IMG/VR virus record: IMGVR_UViG_2529292720_000008
From: a virus
Lineage: Duplodnaviria; Heunggongvirae; Uroviricota; Caudoviricetes
Length of the DNA stretch: 5,912 nucleotides
Strand: one strand, 5' to 3'
The position numbers were made by a program, and so were the translations under genes. Below the pieces are notes generated by a model. The model searched no databases. It was not told the DNA's origin and saw only the letters and a program-made list of their open reading frames with translations. Shown here piece after piece: positions 1 to 5,770 of this stretch; the stretch's first letter is position 1, and every line of letters starts with the position of its first letter.

Positions 1-963
1 AAAAACCCCCGTTATGAGTTGTGCGCCACAGTACAGGAAGCACTAAAACCCGTTACGGTGAAGGAAGCGATTAACTACTGGCTGGAGGAATACGCGAAGG
101 ATAACCGCAAAGATTACATAAAGCTGGTGCAGCGTATGGATAAGCACATCATTTGCCATATTGGGGCAATTCCCCTTGATAAGTGTGATACAAGGCAGTG
201 GATCGCATGTTTTGACCGCGTACGAAAAAAAGCACCAGTAGCAGCGGGCCATGTCATGCAGACATGCAAACAGGCGCTAAAGTTTTGCCGCAGGCGGCGC
301 TACGCGTTTAGCAACGCCCTGGACGATTTGATCGTTACTGATGTGGGTAAGAGAGCAGAAATCCGCGAGAGAGTGCACAGCAACAGCGAACTAAAAGAAA
401 TTCTACGCGCTATTGATGGTGATGTGTTCGCTCCCTATTACAGTGCGTTAATGCGCTTGTTAATTGTGTTCGGGTGCAGAACGGCAGAGATCAGACTTTC
501 AGAGATCAAAGAATGGGATCTGAAAGAAATGTTGTGGACAGTGCCAAAAGAGCACAGCAAAACGAAGGTCGCCATATTCAGGCCAATACCGGAAAGCATT
601 TTACCGTTCGTCACGCAGCTGGTGGAGCAGAACAGACACACAGGGCTATTACTCGGGGAACTGAAACAGGAAGCCAGTGTGTCGCAATACGGCAGATTCA
701 TGCACAAAAAATTAAACCATCCGCACTGGTCACTACACGATATACGGCGCACGTTTACCACGATGCTGAACGATTTAGGCGTGGATCCGCATATTGTCGA
801 ACAACTCACCGCTCACCAGATGCCAGGGATGCAGCGAGTCTATAACCACTCCCGTTATCTCGATGCGAAACGTAATGCGCTGGACATGTGGACAGAGCGG
901 TTAGAGATACTGGCGGGTACTCACAAAAACGTAACCACACTGCCAATAGCCAGAGAAATATAA
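1..963 (+). CDS. int: Tyrosine recombinase / phage-type integrase, C-terminal portion; 5' end is outside the window (frame is open from position 1)
   Basis: Frame open from nt 1 to stop at 961-963. Translation carries the catalytic-domain hallmarks of tyrosine recombinases: conserved Arg in GCRTAEI, the HDIRRTF His-x-x-Arg box, and the C-terminal VYNHSRY tyrosine region, followed by a P4-type tail (LDAKRNALDMW). The TTG at 19 is only the ORF finder's first start, not the real one. Confidence 0.9.
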   Translation, partial: KNPRYELCATVQEALKPVTVKEAINYWLEEYAKDNRKDYIKLVQRMDKHIICHIGAIPLDKCDTRQWIACFDRVRKKAPVAAGHVMQTCKQALKFCRRRRYAFSNALDDLIVTDVGKRAEIRERVHSNSELKEILRAIDGDVFAPYYSALMRLLIVFGCRTAEIRLSEIKEWDLKEMLWTVPKEHSKTKVAIFRPIPESILPFVTQLVEQNRHTGLLLGELKQEASVSQYGRFMHKKLNHPHWSLHDIRRTFTTMLNDLGVDPHIVEQLTAHQMPGMQRVYNHSRYLDAKRNALDMWTERLEILAGTHKNVTTLPIAREI

Positions 964-990
964 TTTTTTTTGCGATTTTTTAGAACTGAC

Positions 991-1050
991 ACAACGTGAA
1001 ACAACGAGACACCACGACGAACAACGGCGAACAATCTGGAACAAACTTGA
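991..1050. repeat. Six contiguous 10-bp direct repeat units (acaacgtgaa / acaacgagac / accacgacga / acaacggcga / acaatctgga / acaaacttga), flanked by CTGACAC at 986-992 and 1062-1068
   Basis: Read directly from the sequence: each 10-mer block from 991 begins ACAAC, ACCAC, ACAAT or ACAAA, giving one-helical-turn phasing. Lies in the int-alpA intergenic region. Confidence 0.7.
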
Positions 1051-1330
1051 TTAACATCTGACTGACACCCTAAAAAGTTGATTTTCAGTCGTTTTACTGG
1101 CTTTTTGTACATTGGCGAATCACTCTTAAAAACATGTAAAAAAGGCGTAAAAACAGAATTTTATGCCTTTGCACCACAATGAATTAAAAGAGTTTTTATT
1201 CTCATTACCACACTTCTGTAAAATGACCGCCGCCAGTGTTTGCCATTCCATAAACACCCTGACACAATCCGACGCACCACAACACAATAGGACACCAAAT
1301 AACTCTTTAAGAAATATCAAAGGGGGAATT

Positions 1331-1519
1331 GTGTTAAGCACAGATCGCTTTATACGTGAAAAAGAATGTCAGCAACTTACAGGCCTGAGCCGTTCATGTC
1401 GGTACCGCCTGGAAAAAACCGGACAATTCCCATCACGGCGTAAGCTCGGCGGTCGTTCCGTTGGCTGGTCTTTATCCGAAGTTCTGGCATGGAAGGAAAG
1501 CTGCGAGGCAGTTCACTAA
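1331..1519 (+). CDS. alpA: AlpA-family (Phage_AlpA / MerR-like HTH) transcriptional regulator or excision activator, 62 aa
   Basis: Translation VLSTDRFIREKECQQLTGLSRSCRYRLEKTGQFPSRRKLGGRSVGWSLSEVLAWKE matches the AlpA pattern (TG-x-SR-x-x-Y ... FP ... LG-x-RSVGW ... E-x-x-x-W). GTG start at 1331 has a strong Shine-Dalgarno AAAGGGGGAA at 1319-1328. The in-frame ATG at 1163 lacks an RBS and would add a non-homologous 56-aa extension. Confidence 0.8.
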   Translation: MLSTDRFIREKECQQLTGLSRSCRYRLEKTGQFPSRRKLGGRSVGWSLSEVLAWKESCEAVH

Positions 1520-1571: not shown

Positions 1572-2047
1572 ATGAATACTGGATATTCTCCCGAACAAGG
1601 GCGGGGCTTCGTTCGTCCTGAAAAACAGAATCTGCAAAATTTTGCCGAAATTATTCCGGTTATTTCCGGCCTTACTGGCGGGAGTGAAACCAATATTGTT
1701 AACGCCAGAGCGTTGCAGATGTTTGATGATAAAAAGGGAGTAAATTTAACTTACACCCCTGACGGCAATCAGAATATGAGCATTATCTCTGAGTCAGGTT
1801 TCTACAAACTAATAAAAACAAAAAGCGCCCCGTTGCCGGAGCGCCTTTGTGAACAATTAACCTACTGCGCAAAAAATGAATCTGAGCAGTGGGATTATAT
1901 CAACCGTGTGGCGAAGCGCCACAATTGCCGGATAACAGGCAAAACAAAGGCCACCCGCTACGGTGGCCCCTCGACACAAGCTACACGTTATCCCCAACGC
2001 ATGAGCATCACCAACAATGCCACATTTGCGGCTGGTGGGCAATGTGA
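1572..2047 (+). other. Possible coding region of uncertain status (start of a 470-codon stop-free frame); may be a decayed gene or a frameshifted remnant
   Basis: ATG at 1572 opens a frame whose first ~120 codons look protein-like (including an SESGFYKLI segment that faintly recalls the E-x-G-L-Y-x-L-I core of Bro-N/antirepressor proteins, from memory). There is no in-frame stop until 2984, and the middle of the frame (2050-2580) is Ser/Cys/Arg-rich, antisense-like translation. No boundary can be supported. Confidence 0.2.
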
Positions 2048-2221
2048 TCAGTCAGATTTGGTTCGTTCCAAGGTTTGCAACGAGAGCTTTTTCCTGTGCT
2101 CTTTAAGGAATTTCTCAAGAGCAAAAGCACATGGCGCGAATCTTTCTGATTCATGCTCTATCTTTCTGCGCCGTCTTTTCCGTGCCGGTGATAATGTTTT
2201 GGTCAATTCTTTATCGGTCAT
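2048..2221 (-). CDS. Small basic hypothetical protein (57 aa from the second ATG; the track start at 2236 gives 62 aa)
   Basis: Minus-strand ORF with charged, protein-like composition (MTDKELTKTLSPARKRRRRKIEHESERF...), in contrast to the junk-like plus-frame translation over the same DNA. AGGA lies 7 nt upstream of the second ATG. It sits directly downstream of the leftward RHH-like gene. No family recognised. Confidence 0.25.
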   Translation of the reverse strand: MTDKELTKTLSPARKRRRRKIEHESERFAPCAFALEKFLKEHRKKLSLQTLERTKSD

Positions 2222-2278
2222 TGTGTTGTCCTGCATAGCAATGCGCCGTAATACCTTACACCACGGCGCTGGTGATGG

Positions 2279-2551
2279 TCACTCCTGCTCTTTGGCCTTG
2301 CGACGCTGGAGTTCTTCACGCGCGACGGTGATGAGTTGCCCGATCTCCTCGGCTGCTTTGACTCCGATTTTTTCCACCTGCGCCAGTGCATCGAGCGAAG
2401 AAACCAGGGGATTTTCTCCGCTTCCTTCTGCCTGGCGGCGGGCGATCTCACCGCGAACGGCTGTAATCACGAAAGCGGCTATTGTTTCCCCTTCCGTTTT
2501 CGAATTTTCCATTTCCTCGATTACATCATGGGGGAAGCGGATATTTTTCAT
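2279..2551 (-). CDS. Putative ribbon-helix-helix-like DNA-binding protein, candidate repressor of the divergent rightward operon (90 aa; alternative start at 2584 gives 101 aa)
   Basis: Minus-strand ORF whose N-terminus (MKNIRFPHDVIEEMENSKTEGETIAAFVITAVRGEIARRQ) fits a beta-strand / helix / turn / helix RHH layout, with a helical charged C-terminus. The overlapping plus-frame translation is low-complexity. It is transcribed away from the palindrome-rich region at 2585-2780. The fold call comes from pattern only. Confidence 0.45.
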   Translation of the reverse strand: MKNIRFPHDVIEEMENSKTEGETIAAFVITAVRGEIARRQAEGSGENPLVSSLDALAQVEKIGVKAAEEIGQLITVAREELQRRKAKEQE

Positions 2552-2605
2552 TTGCGATCTGCTGTTGATATTTCCTGTTGCCATCAGAATGTCCGGTTAT
2601 TTTGA

Positions 2606-2709
2606 GGTGTGCATACATTACACCAAAAGGTGTGTAAATAAAACACTTGACACTGTAGCGCACTTAAATTTAATCTGTACACACACCAATGATTGTGGTG
2701 TATGTACAG
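2606..2709. promoter_or_regulatory. Divergent control region: rightward sigma70-like promoter (-35 TTGACA 2647-2652, 16-bp spacer, -10 TTTAAT 2669-2674) flanked by two palindromes built from GGTGTG/CACACC half-sites
   Basis: Consensus -35 hexamer and a 5/6 -10 hexamer at correct spacing. Upstream inverted repeat ACACC-aaaa-GGTGT at 2620-2633. Downstream 14-bp-arm inverted repeat CTGTACACACACCA (2675-2688) / TGGTGTATGTACAG (2696-2709) with one mismatch, overlapping the predicted transcription start. Further GGTGTG copies at 2606 and 2629. Confidence 0.55.
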
Positions 2710-2780
2710 CAAAGCCCCGCAGTGCTGGAACACATGCAGGGCTTCTAACCACCAACGATAGCGAAAGTATCGAGGTAGCT

Positions 2781-2984
2781 ATGAGAAATTATACCAGACA
2801 CCCGCAAGGGCGGGACTCGTACAACCTGAATAAATACATCTGGCGTTTTATCGCCCTGAGCACGGCACAACCGCGCGTGATTACCATTGAGGCCACCAGC
2901 GAACAGGAAGCGCGTCAGCAATCTCCTGATGGCTGCGTGATGGTATTCGCTGCCCGTATTCGCCAGGGGGAACACCATGATTAA
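2781..2984 (+). CDS. Icd-like small protein (host cell division inhibitor Icd-like family, as commonly annotated in P4-like prophages), 67 aa
   Basis: ATG at 2781 preceded by GAGGT at 2772-2776. Translation MRNYTRHPQGRDSYNLNKYIWRFIALSTAQPRVITIEATSEQEARQQSPDGCVMVFAARIRQGE fits my recollection of the Icd-like pattern (W-x-F-x-A-x-S ... SE-x-EAR ... FAAR). First gene downstream of the promoter; the stop overlaps the next start. Confidence 0.55.
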   Translation: MRNYTRHPQGRDSYNLNKYIWRFIALSTAQPRVITIEATSEQEARQQSPDGCVMVFAARIRQGEHHD

Positions 2985-3605: not shown

Positions 3606-3905
3606 ATGAAACAGAAAAATTCTGGCTTTACTGCCAGTGGTCTCCCTCGGCCTGAAATCCGCCCCGGTGATATTTTCCGGGATAACTACGGTGGCACGGT
3701 AACGATTAAAAGCGTGGCGGGGCGGTGCGTTACTTACCGCCGTGATGGGTACGGCTATGACTGCGTGATGCCTGCTTATCAGTTCCGGCGTGATTTTTCA
3801 CTGATACAGGCCACACCACGCAAACAGCCCACCAGCAACGCAAAGGCACGGGCAAATATTCAGAAAATGAAAAACATGATTAACGCATTCAGGGGCAAAA
3901 AATGA
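3606..3905 (+). CDS. Uncharacterised small basic protein, 99 aa, translationally coupled to rep
   Basis: ATG at 3606 with GGAGT upstream; its stop overlaps the rep start (ATGA at 3902-3905). Gly/Arg/Tyr-rich core (GDIFRDNYGGTVTIKSVAGRCVTYRRDGYGYDCVMPAYQFRRDF) suggests a small beta-rich domain. No family recognised. Confidence 0.5.
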   Translation: MKQKNSGFTASGLPRPEIRPGDIFRDNYGGTVTIKSVAGRCVTYRRDGYGYDCVMPAYQFRRDFSLIQATPRKQPTSNAKARANIQKMKNMINAFRGKK

Positions 3906-5317
3906 AACTGGCACCGAACTTAAAAAAACAGCCACACGACAAAATGACCGAAGTCATTATTTTTGCGGGTAGTGATGCCTGGGCGCACGCGAAACAGTGG
4001 CAGGAACAGGACGGGCGACTTGCTGGTGATAACGTCCCGCCTGTATGGCTGGGAGACAGCCAGCTTGACGAACTGGCAGACCTGAAAATTATCGACGATG
4101 GTCGCTATTGTGTCCGGCTGTACAAGGCAGGCCACATCAAGCCGTCAAATATTAATGCTATCGGGCAAAAGCTGGCGGCGGCAGGTGTACGGGATGCGAA
4201 TTATTACCCTGATGGAATGCACAGCCAGAAGCTGGAGAACTGGCACGACTACCTGCAACGGATCCGCGAACAGGCAGAGCGCGGGGAAATACTTACTGAC
4301 GAGCAATACAGCCAGCGAAAAACCACGCTACCAATGAGCATTGGATCTGCAGGGTACGACACACAGCTTGATTATGTCGTTAAGGGCGTGATTCCGGCTA
4401 ATTCATTGTGCAGCACATACGGCGCGAGCGGTTCCTATAAATCGTTCCTCGCGTGTTCCTGGGCGTGTCATGTTGCCACTGGCCGTCACTGGGGAGGCCG
4501 CAGGGTGGCGCATGGTTCGGTGATGTATGTTGTCGGTGAAGGTGGCATTGGTGTCCCCCGCCGTATCAAGGCATGGGAAATCGTTAATGATGAACGGGTG
4601 GAAAATCTGTACCTGGTAAACCGCCCGATTTTTCCGGCAGTCCCGCTTGATGTTGATGAAATGGTCATCGCTTCCCGCCAGGTTGAACGGGAAACGGGTA
4701 AACCGGTACGCATGATTATTCTTGATACGCTGGCGCGTTGCTTTGGCGGTAATGATGAAAATGACGCGCGGGATATGGGGGCGTTTATCCGTGGATGTGA
4801 CGAACTGAAACGCCGCACAGGGGCCACGGTGCTGGTGGTTCACCATTCCGGCAAGGATGAAACAAAGGGGGCGCGTGGTTCCAGTGCATTTCGTGCATCT
4901 CTGGACGCTGAATACCGTATTCGCCGTGAAGGTGCAGACAGTGAAGCCCTGGTTATCTCCTGCACAAAAATGAAGGACGCGGAGGAACTGAAAGAGGCCG
5001 CATACGATTTACGTGTGGTGGAGCTTTTTACCGACACTGACGGGGAGTTAATCACGTCGCTGGTTGTTGTGGATAAGCCGCGCCCACCCGTTGAACTGGA
5101 GCGCATCGAGGAAGCCGGGAACAAGACGGAGAATCATGCCGCGCTATGGGGCTGTATCCGTTCACGCACACAGCGCGGAGATAAATGCACTATTCCGTTG
5201 TTGCGCGATGATATGAAAAAGCTGGGGTATGAGATGAAACACTTCCGGCGCTGGCTGTACAAGCTGGAAGGTGATGGCGTTATTGCTATTGACGGTGATG
5301 ACGTGCGCCCACTGTAA
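3902..5317 (+). CDS. rep: Replication protein: RepA-like / DnaB-like RecA-fold ATPase (AAA_25-type) with an uncharacterised N-terminal ~150-aa domain, 471 aa
   Basis: Walker A GASGSYKS at nt 4421-4444, Walker B-like hydrophobic stretch with Asp (RMIILDTLA, around nt 4709-4735), and the VLVVHHSGKDETKGARGSSA motif typical of RepA-like helicase/ATPase cores. Ends immediately upstream of an iteron cluster. The alternative start at the MTEV Met (nt 3944) cannot be excluded. Confidence 0.85.
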   Translation: MKLAPNLKKQPHDKMTEVIIFAGSDAWAHAKQWQEQDGRLAGDNVPPVWLGDSQLDELADLKIIDDGRYCVRLYKAGHIKPSNINAIGQKLAAAGVRDANYYPDGMHSQKLENWHDYLQRIREQAERGEILTDEQYSQRKTTLPMSIGSAGYDTQLDYVVKGVIPANSLCSTYGASGSYKSFLACSWACHVATGRHWGGRRVAHGSVMYVVGEGGIGVPRRIKAWEIVNDERVENLYLVNRPIFPAVPLDVDEMVIASRQVERETGKPVRMIILDTLARCFGGNDENDARDMGAFIRGCDELKRRTGATVLVVHHSGKDETKGARGSSAFRASLDAEYRIRREGADSEALVISCTKMKDAEELKEAAYDLRVVELFTDTDGELITSLVVVDKPRPPVELERIEEAGNKTENHAALWGCIRSRTQRGDKCTIPLLRDDMKKLGYEMKHFRRWLYKLEGDGVIAIDGDDVRPL

Positions 5318-5518
5318 AAAGTGGGTAGTAAAAGTGGGGAGTGTGGGGAATTTAACAAAATTGAAACGTGATTCCCCACTTTCCCACCTGTATATACCCC
5401 AAAAAGTGGGGAATAAAAAACACATTGAAAAACATCACGTTAGAATCACAAAAAAAAGAAGTGGGGAGACGTTGGGTAATTTCAAAAAGTGGGTAGTAAA
5501 AGTGGGGAGCAGTGAGGA
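5316..5518. repeat. Iteron cluster, putative origin of replication: at least 8 copies of AGTGGGGA-like 8-mers in both orientations, a 26-bp perfect direct repeat (5316-5341 and 5484-5509), and an A-rich tract
   Basis: Read directly: AAAAAGTGGGTAGTAAAAGTGGGGAG occurs twice. Additional GTGGGGA / TCCCCAC copies at 5334-5340, 5342-5349, 5373-5380 (inverted), 5381-5388 (inverted variant), 5405-5412 and 5461-5467. A-rich segment at 5411-5460. Position right after rep fits a rep-ori arrangement. Confidence 0.7.
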
Positions 5519-5770
5519 ATGACCAGAAAAACCAGAGATAAGACAGCGCCAAAATATAAAGCGTTAGACATGACAGAGCACGCCTTAAAGGTGGCAATCA
5601 GAACGATAGACCGCCACGCTGGGGAAGGATACGCGAAAGCACACCCCGAACTGATAAGCGCATTCATGACCACGACGGCGGCAAACTTTGCCACGCTGAC
5701 AGAACGGGAGATTGCCGAAGCGGAACAGGTGACAACCATCAACGTTAAAACTGGAGAGCAGACAGCATGA
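5519..5770 (+). CDS. Hypothetical protein, 83 aa
   Basis: ORF with ATG at 5519 (GGGGAG at 5504-5509 as a possible SD); its stop overlaps the next start (ATGA at 5767-5770). Helical, Ala/Thr-rich translation. No family recognised. Confidence 0.4.
   Translation: MTRKTRDKTAPKYKALDMTEHALKVAIRTIDRHAGEGYAKAHPELISAFMTTTAANFATLTEREIAEAEQVTTINVKTGEQTA

What the first reader, a model, noticed from the sequence alone, without database searches (positions are those of the whole stretch)
986..1068. Six helically phased 10-bp repeats between int and alpA
Six consecutive 10-mers each begin with ACAAC or a close variant, so the recognisable core recurs on the same DNA face every helical turn, and CTGACAC bounds the array on both sides. 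The reverse complement of the units contains TGTTC, the core I recall from P4 type I iterons bound by the alpha protein (from memory, unverified). Possible roles: a secondary replication cis element (crr-like), a binding array for AlpA or integrase, or a DNA-bending module for excision control.
Basis: partly seen in the sequence, partly recalled or inferred. Interest (0 to 1): 0.5.

Follow-up and report, generated by a model that had tools for sequence, protein, structure and literature searches.

The report
Excisionase-type operator array of a phage satellite
Six short DNA repeats, one per helical turn, between the integrase and alpA genes of an E. coli phage satellite are most likely the docking track for the satellite's small excisionase-like regulator AlpA, because the same motif also sits on both arms of the satellite's attachment site.

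Summary
Six 10-bp units (988-1047) carry the core ACAA at a strict 10-bp phase. Simulated sequences never gave such a chain. All 57 distinct int-alpA spacers from related E. coli satellites (EcCICFT073-type PICIs) keep 5-6 units: the core and phase are conserved, the 5-bp spacers vary, and unit number changes in exact 10-bp steps. The CTGACAC "bounds" are not conserved.

The P4 crr/iteron idea fails. The element has a RepA-type helicase with its own AAAAGTGGGGA iterons downstream, and the array persists across different Rep alleles.

The decisive result came from outside the window. A weight matrix built only from these arrays finds the same motif, inverted and 10-bp phased, on both arms of the element's attachment site. 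There it lies next to a doubled GGTGTAGT(TAAT/CACT) motif that covaries perfectly (30/30 loci) with the integrase's arm-binding domain. The phased motif does not covary with it.

This matches dual-purpose recombination directionality factors (P2 Cox, 186 Apl, TorI, RdfS), which have operators at att and at a distant promoter. AlpA has an excisionase fold, and the published AlpA-activated PalpA fragment contains the array. Binding itself is inferred, not shown. Verdict: a new member of a known kind, of moderate interest.

The parts
988..1047 (+). Array of six 10-bp direct repeats: GACACAACGT, GAAACAACGA, GACACCACGA, CGAACAACGG, CGAACAATCT, GGAACAAACT. Consensus G-R-A-ACAA-Y; the reverse strand reads TTGTTC-like.
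   Evidence: real and non-random. (57 distinct relatives keep 5-6 units; core conserved, spacers free; unit gain or loss in exact 10-bp steps). (same motif on both att arms).
19..963 (+). 3' two-thirds of the tyrosine integrase gene (the 5' end lies outside the window). It is transcribed towards the array.
   Evidence: Pfam PF00589 and PF22022. The full gene is 1230 bp in L001.
964..987 (+). Conserved T-rich spacer (TTTTTTTTGCGATTTTTTAGAACT) between the int stop codon and the array. No hairpin precedes it.
1071..1083 (+). TAAAAAGTTGATT, a perfect match to the IHF consensus YAANNNNTTGATW (consensus recalled from memory). The YTGATTTT block is conserved and lies 34-37 or 46 bp after the last core in every subtype.
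   Evidence: conservation and spacing. The IHF assignment is inference only.
1106..1133 (+). Conserved block TTGTAC-N16-TAAAAA (TTATAC...TTTAAA in relatives). Weak candidate distal promoter or protein-binding site.
   Evidence: Not called by the promoter scan. Inference.
1141..1170 (.). Conserved hairpin AAAGGCGTAAAA-N6-TTTTATGCCTTT with changes that keep pairing (G.T, G-C, A-T) among relatives. It looks like a bidirectional terminator and is the better terminator on the minus strand (GCC followed by T6).
   Evidence: I7; z = -2.5.
1240..1268 (+). Predicted sigma-70 promoter of alpA: TTGCCA-N17-CACAAT with TG (extended -10). Conserved in relatives.
1261..1300 (+). Second, weaker 10-bp phased set (GACACAATCC, GACGCACCAC, AACACAATAG, GACACCAAAT). 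It overlaps the predicted -10 and leader, and starts 273 bp after the first array.
   Evidence: (D3). It does not form a cluster at the PWM threshold used.
1331..1519 (+). alpA (GTG start, 62 aa): a winged-helix protein with an excisionase-type fold, the proposed ligand of the array.
   Evidence: PF05930, E = 2.7e-18. PDB 8C3T by sequence. AF2 model pLDDT 87.6. Best Foldseek matches are GIsul2 excisionase (TM 0.83), RdfS, TorI and Pukovnik Xis.

Best explanation
The array is an operator for a recombination-directionality-factor-type winged-helix protein, most likely the element's own AlpA. One monomer would sit on each G-R-A-ACAA-Y unit, head to tail, one per helical turn. Binding would be cooperative and would bend or wrap about 60 bp of DNA. 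The element is an EcCICFT073-type phage-inducible chromosomal island (PICI). It carries the same motif in three places: on the P' arm just upstream of int, on the P arm at the right end (both next to the integrase arm sites), and, inverted, between int and alpA. The att copies would serve excision. The copy in the window would serve control of alpA. It lies upstream of the alpA promoter region, separated from it by an IHF-like site. It most likely mediates the positive autoregulation of alpA reported for EcCICFT073, giving a cooperative, switch-like commitment once a helper phage has triggered some alpA expression. Shown here: the array, its conservation pattern, the shared motif at both att arms, independence from the Int arm-domain variant and from the Rep allele, and the excisionase fold of AlpA. 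Inferred: that AlpA is the ligand, that binding activates rather than represses, and which promoter is affected.
For: (1) Geometry typical of RDF operators: six direct repeats at exactly 10 bp, a core of 4-5 bp and free spacers. RDFs bind head to tail to tandem repeats one DNA turn apart and need 3 or more adjacent sites (PMC7498355). TorI, which the EcCIMP1 paper groups with the AlpA-annotated excisionases, uses GTTCG-type pentamers, three of them at a 10-bp period (PMC2951348). (2) Selection acts on core and phase. All 57 distinct relatives keep 5-6 units, and indels are exact 10- or 20-bp steps (L192, L008). (3) A PWM built only from int-alpA arrays finds 10-bp-phased clusters on the opposite strand at the P' arm (L001 8620-8640) and the P arm (18759-18779). 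184 of 200 simulations gave no cluster. The result repeats in 12 further loci. The att core was defined against the empty K-12 site. RDFs that also regulate transcription use sites of the same sequence and arrangement at att and at a distant promoter (Apl, Cox, P4 Vis, RdfS). (4) The array is not an integrase arm site. The adjacent doubled GGTGTAGT(TAAT or CACT) motif tracks the Int N-terminal variant in 30 of 30 loci, including the recombinant L007, while the phased motif stays constant. (5) Elements with a diverged AlpA recognition region (68-70% identity; L137, L143) have a shifted phased core on their P' arm (TTCG, GTTCAT) and give no PWM cluster. (6) AlpA has an excisionase-type fold. (7) The published primers place the AlpA-activated PalpA-lacZ fragment at the equivalent of window 931-1388, so it contains the array. 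The primers match L006 exactly. alpA is required for induction and transfer of EcCICFT073, for excision of EcCIMP1, and is sufficient for excision in PICMIs.
Against: No binding data exist, so the ligand is inferred. The AlpA-responsive fragment is 458 bp and holds other conserved blocks. The array lies about 190-250 bp upstream of the only promoter the scan predicts, which is far for direct activation. AlpA over-expression did not change a Pint-lacZ fusion whose fragment appears to include the P' arm array, so AlpA either does not bind there alone or binds without effect. Relatives with 57-70% identical AlpA (L137, L143) lack an internal array and carry an ORF there instead, so the array is not essential to AlpA function in general. 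The covariation with AlpA rests on few independent lineages, and Int differs in them too. RDF sites on both att arms are unusual, since classical RDFs act on one arm.
Confidence: 0.6

Rival explanations
1. The array is the landing site for a helper-phage protein, for example the helper's own excisionase or Cox-like RDF. [quoted passage not shown]
For: Helper phages induce alpA transcription through an unidentified factor, and partly without AlpA (PMC6092414; PMC11773190). Both reporter fragments include this region. P2 Cox binds six or more cox-boxes near P4 P_LL. AlpA-family excisionases cross-complement between elements. Lambda X1 contains GTTGTGT.
Against: The same motif on both att arms of the satellite points to a satellite-specific factor. 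Helpers as different as lambda and phi80 both induce. Only one lambda Xis site resembles the core. AlpA alone activates the fragment in a phage-free strain.
Confidence: 0.12
2. The array is an accessory integrase (arm-type) binding site.
For: Arm-type sites can be tandem and roughly 10-bp phased, as in lambda P'1-3 (from memory). The array lies directly after int. The same motif flanks the presumed arm sites at att.
Against: It lies 1.4 kb from the crossover. The doubled GGTGTAGT motif, not the phased motif, covaries with the Int N-terminal domain in 30 of 30 loci. One arm-binding domain is unlikely to read two unrelated motifs.
Confidence: 0.05
3. The array is a secondary replication element (crr-like) bound by the element's Rep protein.
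For: It is an iteron-like tandem repeat. TGTTC is present in 3 of 6 units on the reverse strand.
Against: Rep is RepA/AAA_25, not P4 alpha. The ori iterons are AAAAGTGGGGA. The array is constant across different Rep alleles. rep-ori alone replicates. TGTTCACC is not enriched.
Confidence: 0.02
4. The array acts without a dedicated element-encoded ligand. It could be a host-factor array (for example a tandem-repeat-binding response regulator), intrinsically curved DNA that tunes the promoter, or a roadblock or insulator between int and alpA transcription.
For: The phase between the array and the downstream YTGATTTT/IHF-like block is roughly kept. No terminator separates int from the array. A host factor cannot be excluded, because the host of the diverged L137 element is unknown.
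Against: There are no phased A-tracts of 4 or more, and the conserved C inside the core argues for base-specific reading. The motif is confined to three positions of the element, two of them att arms. I know of no E. coli factor with this motif at a 10-bp period (ArcA and PhoB use 11 bp; from memory).
Confidence: 0.1

Closest known systems
186 Apl and P2 Cox operators (dual-purpose RDF and transcription regulator); P2 Cox boxes upstream of the P4 P_LL promoter
   Same: Five to seven direct repeats of a 5-9 bp core, one helical turn apart. They are present both at the attachment site and at a promoter region far from it, and are bound cooperatively by a small winged-helix protein that bends or wraps DNA (PMC7498355, PMC3936717). 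In P4 the array controls the operon that begins with the alpA homologue vis.
   Different: The protein family differs (Cox/Apl against AlpA, PF05930). Apl and Cox arrays overlap face-to-face lytic and lysogenic promoters and mainly repress, whereas here the published effect of AlpA is activation. The motif lies on both att arms here. Binding is not shown.
TorI (KplE1/HK620 excisionase) sites in attL
   Same: TorI is a protein of the same AlpA/Xis-like kind. Its sites have pentameric cores (GTTCG, GATCG, GTCCG), three of them at a 10-bp period, in attL just upstream of an inward-facing int gene. The sites double as regulators of int (PMC2951348). The reverse strand of two window units reads TTGTTCG.
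   Different: TorI sites are known only in attL, and there they repress int. No distant array upstream of torI is described. The conserved core here is TTGT rather than TTCG.
RdfS of ICEMlSymR7A
   Same: An excisionase-fold wHTH protein that binds attP and its own promoter, coordinating rdfS/intS expression with excision (PMC11963761). It is the second-best structural match to the AlpA model.
   Different: RdfS sites show no consensus motif (indirect readout), and oligomerisation uses an extra N-terminal helix that AlpA lacks.
   Same: Short repeats in a satellite of enterobacterial phages, with a partial TGTTC match.
   Different: Different replication protein, different iterons at the real ori, no covariation with Rep, and no requirement for replication of a rep-ori plasmid.
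Pseudomonas aeruginosa AlpA antiterminator and its ABE
   Same: The name, and an HTH that reads a short DNA element in a promoter.
   Different: That protein is much larger (functional residues up to 142). It reads a single GGGACG element between -35 and -10 and inserts an N-terminal ring into the RNA exit channel (PMC9371919). The 62-aa PICI AlpA has only the wHTH.

Membership tests
RDF (excisionase) operator arrays, dual att-plus-promoter type | Tandem direct repeats spaced one DNA helical turn apart, with three or more adjacent sites | tested here: met
   Six units at exactly 10 bp. 5-6 units in 57 distinct relatives.
RDF (excisionase) operator arrays, dual att-plus-promoter type | Sites of the same sequence and arrangement in the attachment-site arms | tested here: met
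   A PWM from the array finds 10-bp-phased clusters at the P' and P arms of L001 and in 12 other loci. The att core was defined against the empty K-12 site.
RDF (excisionase) operator arrays, dual att-plus-promoter type | The element encodes a small winged-helix RDF-type protein | tested here: met
   AlpA is PF05930. AF2 model pLDDT 87.6. Best folds are GIsul2 excisionase, RdfS, TorI and Pukovnik Xis.
RDF (excisionase) operator arrays, dual att-plus-promoter type | The motif tracks the RDF, not the integrase | tested here: inconclusive
   Independent of the Int arm-domain variant (30 of 30 loci). The core is shifted in elements with a diverged AlpA, but these are few lineages and Int differs in them too.
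RDF (excisionase) operator arrays, dual att-plus-promoter type | Cooperative protein binding and DNA bending at the sites; the protein is required for excision | not testable with these tools
   Literature on relatives only: alpA is needed for induction and excision, and AlpA activates a fragment that contains the array.
P4-type replication iterons / crr | P4 alpha-type primase-helicase encoded by the element | tested here: not met
   Rep is AAA_25 / RepA-family helicase.
P4-type replication iterons / crr | Repeats match the iterons of the element's own ori and covary with Rep | tested here: not met
   The ori iterons are AAAAGTGGGGA at 5317-5520. The array is unchanged across Rep alleles. TGTTCACC is not enriched.
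Integrase arm-type sites | Located in the att arms within a few hundred bp of the crossover | tested here: not met
   The array lies about 1.4 kb from the core AATATCGTGA.
Integrase arm-type sites | Covary with the integrase N-terminal arm-binding domain | tested here: not met
   The doubled GGTGTAGT(TAAT or CACT) motif covaries with it. The ACAA/TTGT repeats do not.
Intrinsically curved A-tract DNA | Phased A/T tracts of 4 or more bp with no base-specific core | tested here: not met
   Units hold only AA or AAA, and the C inside ACAA is nearly invariant.
Known structured RNA | Match to an Rfam family over the array | tested here: not met
   No hit in 900-1330. The only weak hit in the window is symR at 2708-2780, E = 0.14, below the gathering score.

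The most novel reading that the evidence does not exclude
The array is the cis-acting sensor of helper-phage induction. Under this reading an excisionase or Cox-type protein made by the induced helper prophage binds the six phased sites, which mimic RDF operators, and fires the first alpA transcripts. AlpA then takes over the same track for positive feedback and spreads to the two att arms to trigger excision. That would identify the long-sought induction route of Gram-negative PICIs as RDF cross-talk, a mechanistic parallel to P2 Cox acting at P4 P_LL.
Probability: 0.1. Interest if true: 0.8.

Novelty: new member of a known kind. Interest (0 to 1): 0.5.

Why it matters
[quoted passage not shown] This analysis gives a concrete and cheap test. 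A 60-bp operator and two matching att-arm arrays predict that AlpA is a dual-purpose RDF. The analysis also separates the integrase arm sites (doubled GGTGTAGT motif) from the accessory-factor sites in the attachment site. The array marks the fragment to mutate when searching for the helper-encoded inducer. For engineered PICI "drones", it marks a cis element that should not be deleted.

Tried and rejected
2. The pattern scan ACAAY(N5)x4 of IMG/VR was mostly noise from giant-virus repeats. Only 8 of about 120 loci were PICIs.
3. The P. aeruginosa AlpA antiterminator model was rejected. That protein is far larger and uses a single ABE inside the promoter.
4. Coding potential of the minus-strand 63-aa ORF over the array (921-1112) was rejected, because relatives differ by 10-bp indels that break any reading frame.
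5. The terminator-like hit inside the array (1029-1010, minus strand) is an artefact of the repeat.
6. Lambda Xis sites: only X1 carries GTTGTGT, which is not enough for a claim.
7. The argument that L137 shares host and att site with the E. coli elements was dropped after its flank failed to match roxA.
8. Attempts to find full-length relatives of the L146 element, which has a different 4 x TCAGG phased array, failed.
9. No paper on PDB 8C3T was found in the library.
10. No paper in the library combines AlpA, PICI, EMSA and excision.
11. Promoter assignment for the conserved 1106-1133 block stayed unresolved.

Full report
**Context.** The window is the left part of a roughly 10-kb E. coli phage-inducible chromosomal island (PICI) of the EcCICFT073 type. 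It holds these features, in order:
- int, cut at its 5' end (19-963)
- a 367-bp spacer
- alpA (GTG start, 1331-1519; PF05930)
- a variable zone with a minus-strand YlcI-like gene
- small ORFs and a DUF4222 gene
- a RepA/AAA_25 helicase gene (3902-5317)
- an iteron-type origin (5317-5520)
- the start of ssb

In strain 90-9280 a 97.3% identical copy of the element lies between mcaS/abgR and smrA and continues with capsid, decoration and small-terminase genes. The published EcCICFT073 primers match the window with 0-1 mismatches and match relative L006 exactly.

**Observation.** Six 10-bp units start at 991, 1001, 1011, 1021, 1031 and 1041.
- Chance does not explain them. No run out of 1000 simulations had 3 or more phased ACAAY.
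- A motif-agnostic scan for phased chains gave at most 3-4 units in 500 simulations, against 6 in the window.
- CTGACAC at 986 and 1062 is real but is not a conserved boundary.
- The same scan shows a second, weaker phased set at 1252/1261-1300. It overlaps the only promoter the scan predicts: TTGCCA-N17-CACAAT with an extended -10 TG.

**Conservation.** I collected int-alpA spacers from 13 E. coli genomes and 68 IMG/VR contigs.
- All 57 distinct spacers whose AlpA is at least 87% identical carry the array, with 5 or 6 units by the automatic count. One of them, L192, shows an extra, seventh unit on inspection.
- The ACAA core is almost invariant. The flanks read G (-3), R (-2), A (-1) and Y (+4). 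The remaining positions carry 0.2-0.4 bits. The core values are partly circular, because units were picked by the core. A flank-anchored alignment shows the same contrast.
- Unit number changes by exact 10- or 20-bp steps (L192, L008). This keeps the helical phase and rules out a coding function.
- The distance from the last core to the next conserved block (YTGATTTT, an IHF-consensus match in the window at 1071-1083) is 34-37 or 46 bp in all subtypes.

**Not a replication element.** Four results argue against a crr-like role:
- The array is the same in relatives with clearly different Rep alleles.
- The origin iterons are AAAAGTGGGGA.
- In EcCICFT073 the rep-ori segment alone replicates.
- TGTTCACC is not enriched in the window.

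**The key result lies outside the window.** Alignment with the empty K-12 site places the crossover at AATATCGTGA.
- Both island arms carry a 69-bp module. On the P' arm its first part is four 10-bp phased units (CTTGTTCCAA, CTTGTTCCAC, GTTGTACCCC, CTTGTGCAAT), which are the reverse complement of the array's motif. The P arm copy is 77% identical and keeps three phased units.
- The second part of the module, identical on both arms, is a doubled GGTGTAGTTAAT.
- A weight matrix built only from int-alpA arrays recovers both arm clusters, at exact 10-bp spacing and on the opposite strand. 184 of 200 simulated loci gave no cluster.
- The same picture repeats in 12 other loci.

**Integrase sites are a different motif.** The doubled motif occurs as ...TAAT or ...CAC(T/A).
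- This variant matches the variant of the integrase N-terminal (arm-binding) domain in 30 of 30 loci.
- One of these loci, L007, is a recombinant. Its catalytic part is 98% identical to L001, but its N-terminal domain and its doubled motif are both of the other type.
- The doubled motif is therefore the integrase arm site. Its positions are about 78 bp upstream and 143 bp downstream of the core. These resemble the 81 and 132 bp reported for a doubled motif in helper-embedded PICIs (PMC10111431).
- The phased TTGT/ACAA motif does not change with the integrase variant.

**More distant elements.** Elements with AlpA 68-70% identical and a changed recognition region (L137, L143) keep the architecture of phased repeats followed by a doubled arm motif upstream of int.
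- Their phased core is shifted to TTCG or GTTCAT, and they give no cluster with the PWM.
- These elements carry an iolg-like ORF between int and alpA and have no internal array.
- One 57%-identical relative (L146) has a different 4 x TCAGG phased array in the int-alpA spacer.

**The candidate ligand.** AlpA is 62 aa.
- Its AF2 model (pLDDT 87.6) is a winged helix.
- Its best structural matches are excisionases: GIsul2 8C3T (TM 0.83, 38% identity), RdfS, TorI and Pukovnik Xis.

**Literature on RDFs.**
- RDFs bind head to tail to tandem repeats one turn apart, cooperatively, and need 3 or more sites. Several of them (Apl, Cox, P4 Vis, RdfS) also regulate transcription at a site far from att, using operators of the same sequence and arrangement.
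- TorI uses GTTCG-type pentamers, three of them at a 10-bp period.

**Literature on AlpA in satellites.**
- AlpA activates a PalpA-lacZ fragment that corresponds to window 931-1388 and so contains the array.
- AlpA does not affect a Pint fragment that appears to contain the P' arm.
- Helper phages induce alpA through an unidentified factor.
- In PICMIs, AlpA is sufficient for excision and is proposed to be an excisionase.
- I found no paper in the library that defines AlpA binding sites in PICIs.

**Mechanism proposed.** AlpA monomers would bind cooperatively to the six in-phase sites and bend the DNA upstream of the alpA promoter region, possibly with IHF. This would give positive feedback. 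The same protein would occupy the shorter arrays next to the integrase arm sites on both att arms to drive excision.
- Shown: the anatomy, the conservation pattern, the shared motif, independence from Int and Rep variants, and the fold of AlpA.
- Inferred: the ligand, the sign of regulation and the target promoter.
- Main weaknesses: there are no binding data; the array is far (about 190-250 bp) from the predicted promoter; AlpA had no effect on Pint; and the covarying lineages are few.

**Verdict.** The repeat is real, conserved and functional-looking. The crr/iteron reading is wrong. The AlpA-binding and DNA-bending reading is the best supported. It is a new member of a well-known kind of system, the dual-purpose RDF operator, in an element family where the operator had not been described. 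Interest is moderate.

Noticed in passing
window 5317-5520: Replication origin just after the helicase gene. Two exact 26-bp copies of AAAAAGTGGGTAGTAAAAGTGGGGAG lie 168 bp apart, with further GTGGGGA/TCCCCAC copies around an AT-rich centre. [quoted passage not shown]
   Followed up: partly
L001 8656-8680 and 18796-18819 (outside the window): A doubled GGTGTAGTTAAT motif lies on both att arms, about 143 bp and 78 bp from the crossover AATATCGTGA. Its last four bases (TAAT or CACT) match the variant of the integrase N-terminal domain in 30 of 30 loci, so these are the probable integrase arm-type sites.
   Followed up: yes
window 1141-1170: Conserved hairpin AAAGGCGTAAAA/TTTTATGCCTTT with pairing-preserving substitutions among relatives. 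It looks like a bidirectional terminator that is stronger on the minus strand, which would shield int from antisense transcription coming from the variable zone.
   Followed up: partly
window 1252-1300: A second 10-bp phased set (GACACAAT-like units) overlaps the predicted alpA -10 and leader. It starts 273 bp (26 turns of 10.5 bp) after the first array. It may be a weak second AlpA site or simply the promoter.
   Followed up: partly
window 1071-1083: TAAAAAGTTGATT fits the IHF consensus YAANNNNTTGATW (recalled from memory). The YTGATTTT part is conserved in all relatives at a roughly phase-constant distance from the array.
   Followed up: partly
window 1572-2984: This 470-aa ORF is annotated in RefSeq as 'Icd-like'. 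It has no Pfam hit, runs across a minus-strand YlcI-like gene (2279-2584) and an operator-like region, and is broken into several small genes in relatives. It is probably an annotation artefact or a fusion.
   Followed up: partly
window 2676-2708: Long imperfect inverted repeat TGTACACACACCAAT-G-ATTGTGGTGTATGTACA between the minus-strand YlcI-like gene and the rightward operon. It is a likely operator of the variable-zone switch. A sub-threshold symR-like Rfam hit (2708-2780, minus strand, E = 0.14) lies next to it.
   Followed up: no
L009-L016 and many IMG/VR relatives, between the int stop and the array: The commoner subtype has an extra perfect 16-bp palindrome, CAGTATGCGCATACTG, directly before the array. 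The window lacks it. Its function is unknown.
   Followed up: no
L007 / L160 relatives, between the array and the YTGATTTT block: Three further 10-bp phased TGATTA units (TCTGATTATC, TATGATTATT, TCTGATTAAC) replace the sequence found in the window. They add about 10 bp, so the helical phase is kept.
   Followed up: no
L137, L138, L143, L144 (AlpA 68-70% identical): A 257-302 aa ORF with no Pfam family fills the int-alpA gap and overlaps the int stop by 4 nt in some loci. It resembles the 'iolg' gene shown to be needed for excision in Vibrio PICMIs. Elements with this ORF have no internal repeat array.
   Followed up: partly
L001 8340-8435 and L228 1159-1252: The island in strain 90-9280 is inserted about 90 bp from the 5' end of the small regulatory RNA gene mcaS, between mcaS and smrA. 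mcaS itself stays intact.
   Followed up: no
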